Source: Eledone cirrhosa
Taxonomy: Eukaryota
Reading direction: 5' to 3'
Length of the DNA stretch: 64,000 nt
Assembly (NCBI GenBank): GCA_964016885.1
Contig: OZ024763.1
Span: 7,006,001-7,070,000, forward strand
The position numbers and the translations under genes are program-made. The notes beneath the pieces are model-generated. The model had not been told where the DNA came from, ran no database searches, and saw nothing but the letters and a program-made list of their open reading frames with translations. This document shows positions 8,207-62,235 of this stretch, in pieces (the first letter of the stretch is position 1; each line of letters opens with the position of its first letter).

Positions 8207-8266
<60 letters not shown>

Positions 8267-8393
8267 AAAGTTTTATTTAAAATTGTTGGGTTACAACGAG
8301 TAAATATTTTATAACTGATATAAAGCACTCAACAAGTTTTGGAGTAGATATACGATATTAAACAAATGGAAACTATATTTATAAAACCATATT

Positions 8394-8459
8394 TATTTCA
8401 TTATACATATTTCAGGGATACCATATTAAAAATATGGCATGCCTTCTTCAGATAAAATA
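8394..8459 (-). ncRNA. Minimal type I hammerhead ribozyme (left arm)
   Basis: Minus strand: stem I TATTTTAT/ATGAAATA, core CTGAAGA, stem II AGGCATGCCATATT-TTT-AATATGGTATCCCT, GAA, stem III ATATGTAT, cleavage nucleotide A. Confidence 0.8.
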
Positions 8460-8603
8460 CAATATATAAGCAGTTTTATAAATAAATTTGACGTACCATA
8501 GAATATTCATCAACTTCCATTTAAAAAAGTTGGTTTTTTTAAATGGAAGTTGATGAATATTCCATGGTACGTCAAATTTATTTATAAAACTGCTTATATA
8601 TTG

Positions 8604-8669
8604 TATTTTATCTGAAGAAGGCATGCCATATTTTTAATATGGTATCCCTGAAATATGTATAATGTAATA
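8604..8669 (+). ncRNA. Minimal type I hammerhead ribozyme (right arm)
   Basis: CTGAAGA 8612-8618, stem II 8619-8649, GAA 8650-8652, ATATGTAT 8653-8660, A8661, stem I 3' strand ATGTAATA (one mismatch), overlapping AATAAA. Confidence 0.78.
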
Positions 8670-9091
8670 AATATAGTTTCCATTTGTTTAATATCGTATA
8701 TCTACTCCAAAACTTGTTGAGTGCTTTATATCGGTTATAAAATATTTACTCGTTGTAACCCAACAATTTTAAATAAAACTTTTGCATATATATATATATA
8801 TATAGGAGGGTCAGCTGAAAAGTTCATTGGTTGGACAAGATACTCTCATGGAATGATCAAATGAGGTTTATTCTTTCATGTGGCCATGCTGGGGCATCAC
8901 CTGGCAGAAACTTAGTATATCATATCAACCCCAATATTCTGTAATTGGTTTCAGCTATTAGACTGTGGCCATACTGGGACAGTGGCACCTTGAAGGGATT
9001 TAGCTTATCACACACACACACACACACTCATCTATATATATATATATATATATATACTCCCGATTGAACCCGGGATAAACATATATATATA

Positions 9092-13478: not shown

Positions 13479-13885
13479 CTATCTATCTATCTAAGGCGGG
13501 TAAAATTCCCGAGATCCATGGACGAGTTCTCTCCAGCGGTCTGTCTCTCATTATCGCTGCCATGTCCTGCATCTCCAACAGACCAGTGTCTGTCCTTAGG
13601 GCATCAACATACGTTAACCTTGGTCTTCCTCTTCTAGTGTGTCCATGTAGGGGCTCCCACAGGAGCACTGAGTGCAATGTCAACTCTGGATGTCGGTGAG
13701 CATGTCTAGCCAACCTCAGTCTCCTCTGTGTCACTTTTGAGCTGACTTTTGCTGTAGTGGTGTCTGTGCTGCTGTATGGGTCTGAGACTTGGACACTGAC
13801 CAAGAAACTCACTCAGATGGTGGATGGGTGCTACACGAGAATGCTGAGGATGGCTCTGAACATTAATCAGTATACACTGAGGATG
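13479..13885 (-). mobile_element. RTE-clade LINE (family 2) 3' fragment with 5' inversion
   Basis: 13493-13750 minus strand encodes [38 protein letters not shown]; 13751-13885 plus strand encodes [31 protein letters not shown]; (AGAT)n tail; flanking ATGGATATAT duplication. Confidence 0.9.
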
Positions 13886-24474: not shown

Positions 24475-27403
24475 AAGAAATATCCAGATCGTCCTTGGCA
24501 CCAAATGATAATAATGATGATGATGATAATGGATAAAAAGTTATTTAATTAGGTCGGCAAGAAATATCCATAATATCCTTGGCACCAAATAATAATGTTG
24601 ATAATGGATAAAAAGTTATTAATTAGGTCAGCAAGAAATATCCAGAACATCCTTGGCACCAAATAATAATGTTGATAATGGATAAAAAGTTATTAATTAG
24701 GTCGGCAAGAAATATCCAGAACATCCTTGGCACCAAATAATAATGTTGATAATGGATAAAAAGTTATTAATTAGGTCGGCAAGAAATATCCAGAACATCC
24801 TTGGCACCAAATAATAATGTTGATAATGGATAAAAAGTTATTAATTAGGTCGGCAAGAAATATCCAGAACATCCTTGGCACCAAATAATAATGTTGATAA
24901 TGGATAAAAAGTTATTAATTAGGTCGGCAAGAAATATCCAGAACATCCTTGGCACCAAATAATAATGTTGATAATGGATAAAAAGTTATTAATTAGGTCA
25001 GCAAGAAATATCCAGAACATCCTTGGCACCAAATAATAATGTTGATAATGGATAAAAAGTTATTAATTAGGTCGGCAAGAAATATCCAGAACATCCTTGG
25101 CACCAAATAATAATGTTGATAATGGATAAAAAAGTTATTAATTAGGTCGGCAAGAAATATCCAGAACATCCTTGGCACCAAATAATAATGTTGATAATGG
25201 ATAAAAAGTTATTAATTAGGTCGGCAAGAAATATCCAGAACATCCTTGGCACCAAATAATAATGTTGATAATGGATAAAAGTTATTAATTAGGTCGGCAA
25301 GAAATATCCAGAACATCCTTGGCACCAAATAATAATGTTGATAATGGATAAAAAGTTATTAATTAGGTCGGCAAGAAATATCCAGAACATCCTTGGCACC
25401 AAATAATAATGTTGATAATGGATAAAAAGTTATTAATTAGGTCGGCAAGAAATATCCAGAACATCCTTGGCACCAAATAATAATGTTGATAATGGATAAA
25501 AAGTTATTAATTAGGTCGGCAAGAAATATCCAGAACATCCTTGGCACCAAATAATAATGTTGATAATGGATAAAAAGTTATTAATTAGGTCGGCAAGAAA
25601 TATCCAGAACATCCTTGGCACCAAATAATAATGTTGATAATGGATAAAAAGTTATTAATTAGGTTGGCAAGAAATATCCAGAACATCCTTGGCACCAAAT
25701 AATAATGTTGATAATGGATAAAAAGTTATTAATTAGGTCGGCAAGAAATATCCAGAACATCCTTGGCACCAAATAATAATGTTGATAATGGATAAAAAGT
25801 TATTAATTAGGTCGGCAAGAAATATCCAGAACATCCTTGGCACCAAATAATAATGTTGATAATGGATAAAAAGTTATTAATTAGGTTGGCAAGAAATATC
25901 CAGAACATCCTTGGCACCAAATAATAATGTTGATAATGGATAAAAAGTTATTAATTAGGTCGGCAAGAAATATCCAGAACATCCTTGGCACCAAATAATA
26001 ATGTTGATAATGGATAAAAAGTTATTAATTAGGTCGGCAAGAAATATCCAGAACATCCTTGGCACCAAATAATAATGTTGATAATGGATAAAAAGTTATT
26101 AATTAGGTCGGCAAGAAATATCCAGAACATCCTTGGCACCAAATAATAATGTTGATAATGGATAAAAAGTTATTAATTAGGTCGGCAAGAAATATCCAGA
26201 ACATCCTTGGCACCAAATAATAATGTTGATAATGGATAAAAAGTTATTAATTAGGTCGGCAAGAAATATCCAGAACATCCTTGGCACCAAATAATAATGT
26301 TGATAATGGATAAAAAGTTATTAATTAGGTCGGCAAGAAATATCCAGAACATCCTTGGCACCAAATAATAATGTTGATAATGGATAAAAAGTTATTAATT
26401 AGGTCGGCAAGAAATATCCAGAACATCCTTGGCACCAAATAATAATGTTGATAATGGATAAAAAGTTATTAATTAGGTCGGCAAGAAATATCCAGAACAT
26501 CCTTGGCACCAAATAATAATGTTGATAATGGATAAAAAGTTATTAATTAGGTCGGCAAGAAATATCCAGAACATCCTTGGCACCAAATAATAATGTTGAT
26601 AATGGATAAAAAGTTATTAATTAGGTCGGCAAGAAATATCCAGAACATCCTTGGCACCAAATAATAATGTTGATAATGGATAAAAAGTTATTAATTAGGT
26701 CGGCAAGAAATATCCAGAACATCCTTGGCACCAAATAATAATGTTGATAATGGATAAAAAGTTATTAATTAGGTCGGCAAGAAATATCCAGAACATCCTT
26801 GGCACCAAATAATAATGTTGATAATGGATAAAAAGTTATTAATTAGGTCGGCAAGAAATATCCAGAACATCCTTGGCACCAAATAATAATGTTGATAATG
26901 GATAAAAAGTTATTAATTAGGTCGGCAAGAAATATCCAGAACATCCTTGGCACCAAATAATAATGTTGATAATGGATAAAAAGTTATTAATTAGGTCGGC
27001 AAGAAATATCCAGAACATCCTTGGCACCAAATAATAATGTTGATAATGGATAAAAAGTTATTAATTAGGTCGGCAAGAAATATCCAGAACATCCTTGGCA
27101 CCAAATAATAATGTTGATAATGGATAAAAAGTTATTAATTAGGTCGGCAAGAAATATCCAGAACATCCTTGGCACCAAATAATAATGTTGATAATGGATA
27201 AAAAGTTATTAATTAGGTCGGCAAGAAATATCCAGAACATCCTTGGCACCAAATAATAATGTTGATAATGGATAAAAAGTTATTAATTAGGTCGGCAAGA
27301 AATATCCAGAACATCCTTGGCACCAAATAATAATGTTGATAATGGATAAAAAGTTATTAATTAGGTCGGCAAGAAATATCCAGAACATCCTTGGCACCAA
27401 ATA
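24475..27403. repeat. 74-bp AT-rich satellite, ~39-40 highly homogeneous copies
   Basis: Unit aagaaatatccagaacatccttggcaccaaataataatgttgataatggataaaaagttattaattaggtcggc; period 74 (24781 to 24855). Confidence 0.98.
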
Positions 27404-27727
27404 AAAACAGAACTTGAATAACGATTAATGTAGGACCTGAATGGGAAGAAAGAAATCCTAAGACCCGTGCAGAGTGTGTGTGGGGTGTGGAGGTCTGAAT
27501 ATGGCAAAGTTCTTTCAGAGAAGGATAGAGAATGGAAGTGAGAGAGAGAGAGAGATATGGAGGAAAAATTGACCCCAGTACTAGAATGGTAACTCTTGAT
27601 GGAGTCGTGAGGGTGAAGACAAAACCAGGAGGGGTGGGGCTGGAGAAAATGTTCTAAAATGTAGTTTTCTGTAAATGTATAGTCTCTCTCTCTCTTTCTT
27701 TCTCTGTTTCTTTCTCTCTTTCTCTCT

Positions 27728-42813: not shown

Positions 42814-42863
<50 letters not shown>

Positions 42864-42866
42864 CAA

Positions 42867-42921
42867 ACTGCCTGAAGAGGTCACAGCCAAAGATGGCTGT
42901 CACTGAAATATATATAGCAGT
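42867..42921 (+). ncRNA. Minimal type I hammerhead ribozyme in a 110-bp insert between (TA)n tracts
   Basis: ACTGC-CTGAAGA-GGTCACAGCCA-AAGA-TGGCTGTCACT-GAA-ATATATAT-A-GCAGT-AATAAA; predicted cleavage after A42916. Confidence 0.88.
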
Positions 42922-42965
42922 AATAAACGAAGCTAAATTTTAATCATTTGACTTTTATTTAACTT

Positions 42966-43004
<39 letters not shown>

Positions 43005-48962: not shown

Positions 48963-49535
48963 GTAGTTTTGAAGACCGGAAAAGCTGGGCTGGGCTGGCA
49001 TGGTTCATCAATTATAAGTATGCTGCACTAAATTACTCCTTTGAAAGTTCCCTGAAGACCAACATTTCACACACTACACCCCACCCCCCACCCTCCCTCA
49101 CACCACCCAACCATTACCCCCTAACCATTACCCCCTCCACTACCCCTACCACAATATAAAACAGCAGGGTAGAGAGATATAATCACTTGTGGTTAGGCAG
49201 TTCGATTTACTATTGCAAGGCCTTTGGTTCGACTCCTGGGTTTGGCCGGGCCAGTGTATAGTAGTGGCCTTGGGCAAGATTACTTTTCTACTTTTCATTG
49301 TATGGATTGAAGCCCTACCATTAAAATACTTGATAAACCCTCATGAGAGAGGGCAACCTTGTAGAAAGCCAGCTAAACCTGCAGAGTCGGGAGCTGTAAA
49401 TTTCACGCACACGCACACACACTCACACACTCACACACACACAATTGTTTCATTTATTGGCCACAAGGGCCTATCTATCTATATATAAATATACGATATA
49501 TTAACAAATGGAAACTATATTTATAAAACCATATT

Positions 49536-49600
49536 TATTTCATTATACATATTTCAAGGACACCAAGTTAAATTATGGTGTGCTTTCATCAGATAAAATA
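49536..49600 (-). ncRNA. Minimal type I hammerhead ribozyme in a Penelope-like pLTR fragment (~49490-49640)
   Basis: Minus strand: TATTTTAT-CTGATGA-AAGCACACCA..TGGTGTCCTT-GAA-ATATGTAT-A-ATGAAATA; flanks align to the 8.3-8.5 kb arm. Confidence 0.82.
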
Positions 49601-51088
49601 TAATATAGAACAGTTTTATAAATAAATATTGACATACCCTTAAATAAATATATATATACAGATAGATATATATATGACCAAAATTGCGGGAGGACTCAAT
49701 AAGGGTTGTATGTGTGGGTATATATATATTTGTGTGTGTGTGTGCGCACAAAAGCGGGATCTTTTGAAAAACACACACGCATACACATATATAAACACAC
49801 ATACAATCAATAACCACCCACAAAAGCATCTCTCTCTTTCTCTCACATCATTCTGTTTGTATTAGCGACTGTATAACACCTCACTCCAACCCCCTGCTCC
49901 GCCCAACCCCACTCTGAAGTGGTACCAACTACAACATGCTTCTTTGCCCATCTTAAAACATTAACCCTTTACACATCCACATTAAAAATAGCTGTATAAA
50001 TGTGTGTTTCTTCCCCCTCTCTCTCTCTCTCATTTTCTCTCTCTCTCTCTCTCTCATTTTCTCTCTCTCTCTCTCTCATTTTCTCTCTCTCTCTCTCTCA
50101 TTTTCTCTCTCTCTCTCATTTTCTCTCTCTCTCTCATTTTCTCTCTCTCTCTCTCTACACACACACATATACATATATACGCACGCACACACATGCTTCT
50201 GTTTTAACTCCAAGCATGGTTTGTTTTGGCAGCTCTCTGTGTGTGTATTTTATCCACCCCTCCCTACTCACCCTCATCTACACCCCACACTCATAAATAA
50301 TTGTATTAATTTACTGCCAACCTTGGCCTCATTCATTATCAGCAACATGTAATAGGAAGGAGGCAGGCATAGCTGTGTGGTTAAGCAGTTTATTTTGCAA
50401 CCATGTGGATCTGTGTAGTCAGTTAAAACCCTGTCTCTTCCTGTCATTGGAAGGGCAGGGACGTTTCTGCCAGGAGTTGTGACTGACACAGACAGTATCA
50501 GCAATAGAAAGACCTGACCCCATCTAATGGTCAACACCTTTCCTCTGCCAGGAGTTGTCACTGACAGACAGTATCAGCAATAGAAAGACCTGACCTCATC
50601 TAATGGTCAACACCTTTCCTCTGCCAGGAGTTGTCACTGACAGACAGTATCAACAATGGAGAGACTAACGGAATAGGTATTTCCTTGGTCTGATCACCCA
50701 TTTACCTAAGTTAACATCTTCTGACCCTTCCTTACACAGCGTTCCAGTTTTTACTAATGTTATTTCTAAGCAATAGCAATTAACGAATTTCTTTCATTAA
50801 TTCCACTGCTCCAGATTAACTGCTGTAATAATTAGTGTGTTATTTAAAGACATTCCTGCTAATTAGTGCTGAAAGCTCTTGTTAAGAAAATATCTCTGAA
50901 TGTCAACCAAATCTCACAGCAATACGCTGTCTCCTACTTGTCTTCTCTTATAATCGAATACATCTCGAGATTTATTGAAGCCTCTCAAGTATTTCAGCTT
51001 CAGCTATTTACCTGCTGTCATCATCATCATCTACACACACACACACACACACCAAGCATGGAAAATGGATGTTAAACAGTGATAATGA

Positions 51089-58399: not shown

Positions 58400-58716
58400 G
58401 ATCGAGGACCCCCTTTGGTCACGAATTTCCATGGGATTTGCACCGAGAAAGTTTCCTTCCGAGGCACAAGTCCGGGCAAGGTTCCTTGTGAAAGACCTCC
58501 AGCCTCCCCTCTCCACGCCACCGATGTTGTCCAAGGGAAAGGCAATGGCTGATACAGCTTGGCACCAGTGGTGTCTCAACTCATTTCTACAGCTGAGTGA
58601 ACTGGAGCAACGTGAAATAGTGTCTTGCTCAAGGACAATGCAAAGCTTGGTCTGAGAATTGAACTCACAACCTTTTGATTGCCAGCCCAATGCTCTAACC
58701 ACTAAGCCATGCACCT
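58400..58716 (-). mobile_element. tRNA/CORE-like SINE sharing the S2 head but with a different 3' half
   Basis: Matches S2 from the head to ctcatttctacagctgag, then unrelated sequence (..gaggcacaagtccgggcaagg..). Confidence 0.8.
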
Positions 58717-61598: not shown

Positions 61599-62011
61599 CT
61601 ATCTATCTAGGCTGTGTAAAATTCCTGAGATCCATGAATGAGTTCTCTCCAGCAATCTCTGTCCTTCATCATCGCTGCCATGTCCTGCGTCTCCAAGAGA
61701 CCAGTGCCTGTCCTTAGGGTATCAATATATGTCAACCTTGGTCTCTCTCTTCTAGTGTGTCCATGTAGGGGTGGTCTCACAGGACCACTGAGTGCAGTGT
61801 CAACTCTGAATGTCAGTGAGCATGTCCTGCTAACCTCGGTCTCCTCTGTGTCACTTTTGAGCTGACTTTTGGGATGCTCCCATACAGCTCCGAGTTCTTC
61901 ATCCTCAGTGTATACTGATTAATGTTCAGAGCCATCCTCAGCATTCTCGTGTAGCACCCATCCACCATCTGAGTGAGTTTCTTGGTCAGTGTCCAAGTCT
62001 CAAACCCGTAC
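61599..62011 (-). mobile_element. 5'-truncated RTE-clade LINE family 2, colinear copy
   Basis: [65 protein letters not shown], (AGAT)n tail. Confidence 0.9.
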
Positions 62012-62032
62012 ACACATATATATATATATAGA

Positions 62033-62235
62033 CATCATCATCGTTTTAATGTCTATCTTCCACGCTAGCATGGGTTGGACGGGTTTGTCCCACTTGAGGC
62101 AAGATTGGTCGGGTGACCGTGTCTCGCTCATATAGGACTATCTGGCAGGTTTTCTACGGCTGGATGCCCTTCCTAACACCAACCACTTTACAGTGTGGAC
62201 TGGGTGCTTTTTATCGTGACACCTACACGGCCACT
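62033..62235 (-). mobile_element. SINE 3' module, unexpanded form
   Basis: Contains a single copy of the 48-bp unit that is amplified at 3930-4790. Confidence 0.82.

What the first reader, a model, noticed from the sequence alone, without database searches (positions are those of the whole stretch)
42861..42970. Solo, intact-looking hammerhead ribozyme as a 110-bp insert between (TA)n tracts
Seen: all core nucleotides are present (CUGAAGA, GAAA, UH) with a 5-bp stem I, an 11-position stem II, stem III ATATATAT (a perfect palindrome), an AUA cleavage site and AATAAA directly after. The insert starts only 6 nt before stem I. Established: such minimal hammerheads are typical of Penelope-like elements and are proposed to cleave as dimers. 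Inference: stem III is itself (AT)4, the same sequence as the target microsatellite, suggesting a link between ribozyme sequence and (TA)n targeting, or trans-pairing with (UA)n-containing transcripts. If intronic, it could cut a host pre-mRNA.
Basis: partly seen in the sequence, partly recalled or inferred. Interest (0 to 1): 0.8.

Follow-up and report, generated by a model that had tools for sequence, protein, structure and literature searches.

The report
Truncated Penelope-like retrotransposon end with hammerhead
The hammerhead-ribozyme-shaped insert is real, but it is an ordinary leftover: the last 110 bases of an abundant Penelope-like retrotransposon family that sits in (TA)n repeats, and this lone copy is predicted to be inactive.

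Summary
The motif is as described: a type I hammerhead at 42867-42921 between (TA)22 and (TA)16. It is not a special solo element. An 18-mer of it has 8,482 exact matches in the genome (control 0). [quoted passage not shown] That parent carries the Hydra-clade signatures RWK, DKT and CxCX5C, and lacks CCHH. Craig et al. 2021 already report (TA)n insertion and hammerheads for this clade.

The proposed link between the (AT)4 stem III and targeting is not supported. All 25 published Hydra-clade families with a listed hammerhead have AC...GT stems, and 24 are marked (TA)n. A sister family in this window mostly has ATATGTAT and also ends in (TA)n. Junctions at stem III are rare (7 and 11 places, against 6,434 intact copies) and no more frequent than controls. 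Pure (UA)n RNA cannot form stem I, so it should not be cut. Flanking (UA)n is predicted to block the fold instead. Verdict: new member of a known kind, low interest.

The parts
42817..42860 (.). Upstream (TA)22 tract, likely the left part of the target microsatellite
42861..42970 (+). 5'-truncated 3' end (part of the pseudo-LTR) of a Hydra-clade Penelope-like element; 42859-42972 if the TA microhomology at each end is included
   Evidence: 114/114 identical to L031:3017-3130 and L031:1276-1389; same 3' end as most TA-ended family copies
42867..42921 (+). Type I minimal hammerhead: stem I 42867-71/42917-21, core 42872-78, stem II 42879-904, GAA 42905-07, palindromic stem III 42908-15, predicted cut after A42916
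42922..42927 (+). AATAAA, kept in family copies; role as a poly(A) signal untested, and the copies examined end in (TA)n rather than poly(A)
42971..43002 (.). Downstream (TA)16 tract at the family's main 3' junction, 54 nt after the predicted cut site

Best explanation
The insert is the last 110 bases of an abundant Penelope-like retrotransposon family with Hydra-clade protein motifs, likely left by a target-primed reverse transcription event that aborted early, and its lone hammerhead is predicted to be inactive. Shown: identity to the parent's pseudo-LTR, the parent's RT and nuclease motifs, two fixed 3' ends about 54 and 150 nt after the cut site, and (TA)n flanks. Inferred from the PLE literature: the element's GIY-YIG nuclease nicked a (TA)n tract; RT started internally on uncleaved RNA at the +54 site; it copied through the ribozyme and stopped 6 nt past stem I, joining the target by a 2-nt TA microhomology. 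Targeting is likely set by the protein (the CxCX5C linker, as Craig et al. propose), not by the ribozyme. In the parent transcript the hammerhead likely cleaves only as a dimer through the 8-bp palindrome, or with protein help. This copy lacks the upstream ~120 nt of the pseudo-LTR and has no partner ribozyme.
For: 8,482 exact 18-mer matches, control 0; 6,434 copies with stem III and both sides intact. L031 has an inverted copy with tail, then pLTR, tail, ORF, pLTR and (TA)36, with a 4,097-bp unit. ORF motifs read in L031, L033 and L035: RWK, DKT, YRDD, CNCRNPESC, LVY..YIG, CKLC, CRH. 1,287 protein relatives of 8,000 scored, best E 2e-109, mostly ~700 aa, one labelled reverse transcriptase domain. 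Of 89 sampled copies, 53 end in (TA)n after the main end and 28 after the tail; 31 of 45 parsed TA-ended copies end 54-57 nt after the cut. Craig 2021 section 11 and files S1/S2. Frangieh 2024: two internal RT start sites define the tail, ribozyme mutants still insert, and the ribozyme needs protein. Monomer stem III costs 3.4 kcal/mol and has P=0.15.
Against: Pfam found no RT or GIY-YIG family in the parent ORF pieces, and the PDB sequence search found nothing; the domain calls rest on motifs and homologues. No tree with reference Hydra proteins was built. The unit is 4.1 kb, while Hydra elements are generally <3 kb. The tail is ~96 nt, not 30-40. All parent copies read had frameshifts or stops. 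No empty target site and no cleavage data were obtained. Inactivity is a folding prediction only.
Confidence: 0.9

Rival explanations
1. The (AT)4 stem III helps target (TA)n: the cleaved RNA, ending in (AU)4A, anneals to the nicked microsatellite and primes reverse transcription.
For: The (AU)4 strand can pair with (UA)n (-4.1 kcal/mol as an RNA duplex). 7 of 10 pattern matches are copies that stop at stem III and run into (TA)n. AT-only or nearly AT-only stem III occurs in both families studied, unlike the published Hydra ribozymes.
Against: 7 such ends against 6,434 intact copies. A control window of similar width downstream has 4 places (7 vs 4, p=0.55). 5' junctions at the cut site: 11 of 16 matches, against 13 loci in the window upstream of stem I (p=0.68). 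All 25 published Hydra families with a listed ribozyme have AC...GT stem III, and 24 are marked (TA)n; the authors' descriptor may bias the stems listed. Naiads insert in (TA)n without canonical hammerheads. Other motifs in this genome with stems ATGATCAT, ACGTGTGT, ACCTCTAGT or ATGCGCAT are also followed closely by (TA)n (parents not traced).
Confidence: 0.04
2. The copy acts as an active or domesticated ribozyme that cuts a host transcript in cis, or (UA)n RNAs in trans.
For: All core bases and stem I are intact. Thousands of copies could supply dimer partners in trans.
Against: It is 100% identical to the parent pLTR, so youth explains why it is intact. A trans substrate needs (AU)4A followed by GCAGU; pure (UA)n cannot form stem I. 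With its flanks, the stem III strand pairs with upstream (UA)n (P about 0.6) and stem I drops to about 0.05. A single S. mansoni minimal hammerhead showed no cleavage in vitro. No Pfam hit reached its cut-off in 145 of 179 window ORFs, so no host gene is shown.
Confidence: 0.04
3. It is a non-LTR retrozyme or SINE-like unit that moves as a 110-nt element in its own right.
For: A near-identical insert between (TA)n exists at C11:40.32 Mb (L075). Many family copies are short: alignment to the parent stops 117-129 nt upstream of the core in 21 of 45.
Against: It is not a tandem array, whereas retrozymes are defined by tandem units. Only 13 loci start within 12 nt of stem I directly from (TA)7, and their start points differ. 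The common short form is about 230 nt, not 110.
Confidence: 0.02

Closest known systems
Hydra-clade C-terminal EN+ Penelope-like elements (Craig et al. 2021, PMC8557442), including Hydra-1_Obim
   Same: RWK, DKT, CxCX5C linker, no CCHH, CxxC and CxH around the conserved E and N, hammerhead near the 3' end, (TA)n insertion, pLTR, inverted 5' copy and tail.
   Different: A different family from Hydra-1_Obim, whose ribozyme core 15-mer gave only 4 hits here, none in a hammerhead. The unit is 4.1 kb rather than <3 kb, the tail ~96 nt, stem III is AT...AT with an AUA triplet rather than AC...GT with GUH, and there are long insertions in the ORF.
Minimal type I hammerheads of metazoan PLEs (Cervera and de la Pena 2014, PMC4209133)
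   Same: Short stem I (5 bp), long stem II, small palindromic helix III suited to dimers, and many dispersed single copies from truncated PLEs.
   Different: No bulged base between positions 9 and 10.1. This copy has G10.1-U11.1 (42 of 76 parsed copies; 34 have G-C). Sequence variation within the family is low.
Poseidon PAc of Anolis (Frangieh et al. 2024, PMC11167929)
   Same: Two fixed RT start sites bounding a tail; AT-rich targets; genomic copies run through the ribozyme uncut.
   Different: A different clade. In PAc the ribozyme and start sites lie in the start of the ORF; here both ends lie upstream of the ORF and targets are pure (TA)n.
Non-LTR retrozymes (bioRxiv 10.64898/2026.07.22.740005)
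   Same: Non-coding, PLE-derived, type I hammerhead.
   Different: Retrozymes are tandem arrays; this is a single truncated end.

Membership tests
Type I minimal hammerhead ribozyme | Core CUGANGA, GAAA, UH in type I order | tested here: met
Type I minimal hammerhead ribozyme | Stems I and II; short palindromic helix III | tested here: met
   one C-C mismatch and a G-U closing pair in stem II
Type I minimal hammerhead ribozyme | Match to an Rfam hammerhead model | tested here: not met
   whether Rfam models cover PLE minimal variants was not checked
Type I minimal hammerhead ribozyme | Self-cleavage after H17 | not testable with these tools
   needs an in vitro assay or RNA end data
Penelope-like element (EN+) | Parent ORF with RT followed by a GIY-YIG nuclease | tested here: met
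   motifs; homologues; Pfam silent on the parent pieces and below cut-off RVT_1 on one homologue
Penelope-like element (EN+) | Partial tandem with pLTRs, inverted 5'-truncated copy, tail at one end | tested here: met
   L031; 21 of 64 clusters hold opposite-strand copies, 16 of them one tail end and one main end
Penelope-like element (EN+) | Hammerhead inside the pLTR | tested here: met
Hydra clade | RWK motif and DKG changed to DKT | tested here: met
   MRWKAF and HADKTN in L031; L035 has RWK but EKT
Hydra clade | CxCX5C linker; CCHH absent; CxxC and CxH around E and N | tested here: met
   CNCRNPESC, one Cys inside LVY..YIG, CKLC, CRH; read by eye
Hydra clade | Insertion into (TA)n | tested here: met
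   81 of 89 copies reach (TA)n at the main or tail end
Hydra clade | Generally short (<3 kb); a tendency in the paper, not a strict criterion | tested here: not met
   unit of 4,097 bp
Hydra clade | Placement with reference Hydra RTs in a tree | not tested
   reference sequences were seen only in a paper supplement
Non-LTR retrozyme | Tandem units, each with a hammerhead | tested here: not met
   single copy in the window

The most novel reading that the evidence does not exclude
The AU-only stem III lets the target site act as an off switch. In read-through host transcripts the flanking (UA)n pairs with stem III and unfolds the ribozyme, so thousands of dispersed copies cannot cut host RNA, while the upstream pseudo-LTR copy in the element's own transcript, which has no adjacent (UA)n, stays competent. 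This would couple ribozyme sequence to the target microsatellite by tolerance rather than by targeting.
Probability: 0.08. Interest if true: 0.55.

Novelty: new member of a known kind. Interest (0 to 1): 0.17.

Why it matters
By itself this copy matters little. The family is of modest use. The role of hammerheads in EN+ PLEs is still open, and a young family with over 8,000 near-identical ribozymes, natural core mutants and two fixed ends allows simple tests. One is orientation bias inside introns; another is whether core mutants founded subfamilies. It also adds two abundant Hydra-type families with AUA-triplet ribozymes and ~90-96 nt tails in what is likely an octopod genome (inferred from the repeat landscape and an Argonauta protein hit).

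Tried and rejected
The DNA search of the own genome with the 110-mer gave nothing; that tool skips very common words, so this is uninformative. Rfam gave only microsatellite-driven hits, all below their gathering scores. Pfam on the parent ORFs gave one sub-cut-off Dam hit and nothing on the second family's pieces. The PDB sequence search gave no hit. Sequencing runs: no RNA holder listed, which is no evidence on expression. Laid contigs of 4 runs cannot show RNA ends. They show the family in other samples, and within the 55-nt ribozyme the only frequent variants in run X1 are a loop-2 change and U11.1>C, both structure-neutral. Their much greater depth over the pLTR than over the ORF start is not a copy number. 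The Hydra-1_Obim core 15-mer gave 4 hits, none in a hammerhead. A cofold of two ribozyme copies pairs the palindromes, but its MFE swaps stem I and is not the active double hammerhead. Earlier scan findings: none returned. Lunse et al. on dimer cleavage is not held; I saw it only through a review's passages. An empty-site test was not attempted because contigs break at long (TA)n.

Full report
Observation. The sequence shows (TA)22 at 42817-42860, a 110-nt insert and (TA)16 at 42971-43002. All named motifs lie where stated. Stem II has one C-C mismatch and closes on G10.1-U11.1. Stems I and II form the MFE structure, with z -1.61 and 12 of 200 shuffles as good. My descriptor found 4 motifs in the window; 27 of 30 Markov shuffles gave 0 and 3 gave 1. 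Rfam has no hammerhead hit here.

It belongs to a large family. An 18-mer spanning the core and stem II has 8,482 exact matches in the 3.0-Gb genome, reversed control 0. A 32-mer across stem III has 6,434. I examined 89 distinct copies from the first ~53 Mb of contig C1, not a genome-wide sample. Of these, 53 run into (TA)n at the main end, 28 after a further tail, 4 have a tail followed by other sequence, 1 has a tail followed by the ORF leader, and 3 are other. Thirteen of the 89 failed strict parsing and were dropped. Among the 76 parsed, stem III is ATATATAT in 72, stem I is intact in 72, and pair 10.1-11.1 is G-U in 42 and G-C in 34. Of 45 TA-ended copies, 31 end 54-57 nt after the cut site; the 22 tail ends fall at 146-167 nt. 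The window copy ends at +54.

Parent. L031 reads (TA)35, tail and inverted copy, pLTR, tail, ORF region, 3' UTR, pLTR, (TA)36, with 4,097 bp between the direct ribozymes. The window insert matches its pLTR at 114 of 114 bases. ORF pieces in L031, L033 and L035 (all interrupted) show RWK, DKT, YRDD, CNCRNPESC, LVY..YIG with one internal Cys, CKLC and CRH. These are the diagnostics that Craig et al. 2021 give for the Hydra clade (section 11 read). That section also states that canonical hammerheads are present and that almost all families insert into (TA)n. A protein search gave 1,287 relatives among 8,000 scored. Against: Pfam and PDB searches did not name the domains, the unit is longer than the usual <3 kb, and no tree was built. 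The arrangement (pLTR, inverted copy, tail) matches section 6 of that paper.

Is the start 6 nt before stem I special? No. Alignment to the parent stops 117-129 nt upstream of the core in 21 of 45 TA-ended copies, within 12 nt in 1, and extends the full 1,400 nt tested in 4; some stops may be subfamily divergence. Genome-wide, (TA)7 followed within 12 nt by stem I gives 29 matches at 14 places in 13 loci, this one included, with varied start points.

Does (AT)4 link the ribozyme to the target? I ran four tests. (1) Copies ending at stem III: 7 of 10 matches, the other 3 being repeat expansions, against 4 places in a 9-position control window downstream; p=0.55. (2) Copies starting at the cut site: 11 of 16 matches, 5 being internal expansions or variants, against 13 loci upstream of stem I; p=0.68. 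Both classes are below 0.2% of intact copies. (3) Craig et al. files S1 and S2: 26 of 27 Hydra families are marked (TA)n. All 26 listed ribozyme rows (25 families) have AC...GT stem III and none is AT-only, though their descriptor may bias this. (4) A second family in this window (8264-8785; 49486-49646) has 1,439 exact 22-mer matches. Its parent is about 50% identical in the RT and has an RWR variant of RWK, DKS/DKT and CNCRNKSKC. It ends in (TA)n at two fixed sites. Among copies sharing its commonest stem II start, 20 have ATATGTAT and 3 have ATATATAT. Other hammerhead-shaped motifs in the 554 kb of fetched loci have ATGATCAT, ACGTGTGT, ACCTCTAGT or ATGCGCAT and are also followed closely by (TA)n (parents not traced). 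Targeting does not need (AT)4.

Activity. The monomer's 2-bp stem III costs 3.4 kcal/mol and has P=0.15. The 8-bp palindrome duplex is -3.2 kcal/mol, weaker than six published Hydra stems (-3.6 to -9.7). With natural flanks the (AU)4 strand pairs with upstream (UA)n at P about 0.6 and stem I falls to about 0.05. From hammerhead architecture (established knowledge), a trans substrate must supply U16.1, H17 and the 3' strand of stem I, here GCAGU, so pure (UA)n is not a substrate. Cervera and de la Pena (parts 1-2 of 4 read) found no cleavage for a single S. mansoni minimal motif and low cleavage for dimers. Frangieh et al. (parts 1-2 of 4 read) found that a PLE starts RT internally at two sites bounding the tail, inserts equally with a dead ribozyme, and needs protein for cleavage. 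This fits the two fixed ends here and the fact that copies run through the ribozyme uncut.

Host context. No Pfam family reached its cut-off in the 145 longest of 179 unmasked ORFs. Whether the site is intronic is unknown. No RNA run was listed.

Literature scope. Searches found no paper on this family or on an (AT)n stem III; subscription papers and Repbase/Dfam were not available. Also seen: passages of PMC6765202, PMC6962438 and PMC13282606 (recent Penelope-like families in Octopus vulgaris, hammerheads not mentioned), part 1 of 5 of the retrozyme preprint (its supplements were not seen), and parts 1, 2, 52 and 53 of 59 of the Craig supplement.

Verdict. A real motif with an ordinary origin: a 5'-truncated end of a Hydra-type PLE family, likely new as a family but of a described kind. 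The AU-only stem III is a small departure from published Hydra ribozymes; its most plausible effect is silencing by the flanks, which is untested.

Noticed in passing
window 8264-8785: Inverted pair of pseudo-LTRs of a second Hydra-type PLE family between (TA)n tracts, with hammerhead cores at 8451 (-) and 8612 (+), stem III ATATGTAT and a tail at both ends; 1,439 exact 22-mer matches in the genome; parent unit about 4.1 kb.
   Followed up: yes
window 49486-49646 (-): Older, diverged truncated copy of the second family, hammerhead core at 49592.
   Followed up: partly
L031:2908-2955: Alignment of many short copies stops 117-129 nt upstream of the ribozyme core (21 of 45), at CATATG just before an inverted repeat CCAGTTCC...GGAACTGG; this may mark a transcription start or a template-switch point.
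   Followed up: partly
L031:3131-3230 and the second family's tail: Tails are ~96 and ~89 nt, longer than the 30-40 nt described. Both hold a GAGTGCT motif, and similar GAGCACT motifs occur at the ends of published Hydra consensus sequences. The second family's two ends continue as TATAT and ATATAT in the parent, a possible primer microhomology.
   Followed up: no
L001, L011, L038, L039, L045, L049, L050, L096, L150: At least eight further hammerhead-shaped motif types with palindromic stem III turned up by chance in 554 kb of fetched DNA, so the genome likely holds many PLE ribozyme families.
   Followed up: no
L084 (C25:1021200-1021420): Local triplication of the ribozyme 5' half interleaved with (TA)n, likely a slippage duplication.
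   Followed up: no
window 24513-27404: Tandem array of 39 copies of a 74-bp unit at 99% identity.
   Followed up: no
window 58648-58715 (-): Weak tRNA-like match (32 bits), likely a SINE head.
   Followed up: no
window 13492-13812, 61610-62034 (-): Translations resemble the C-terminal end of RTE-type LINE proteins (recalled resemblance; no Pfam hit).
   Followed up: no
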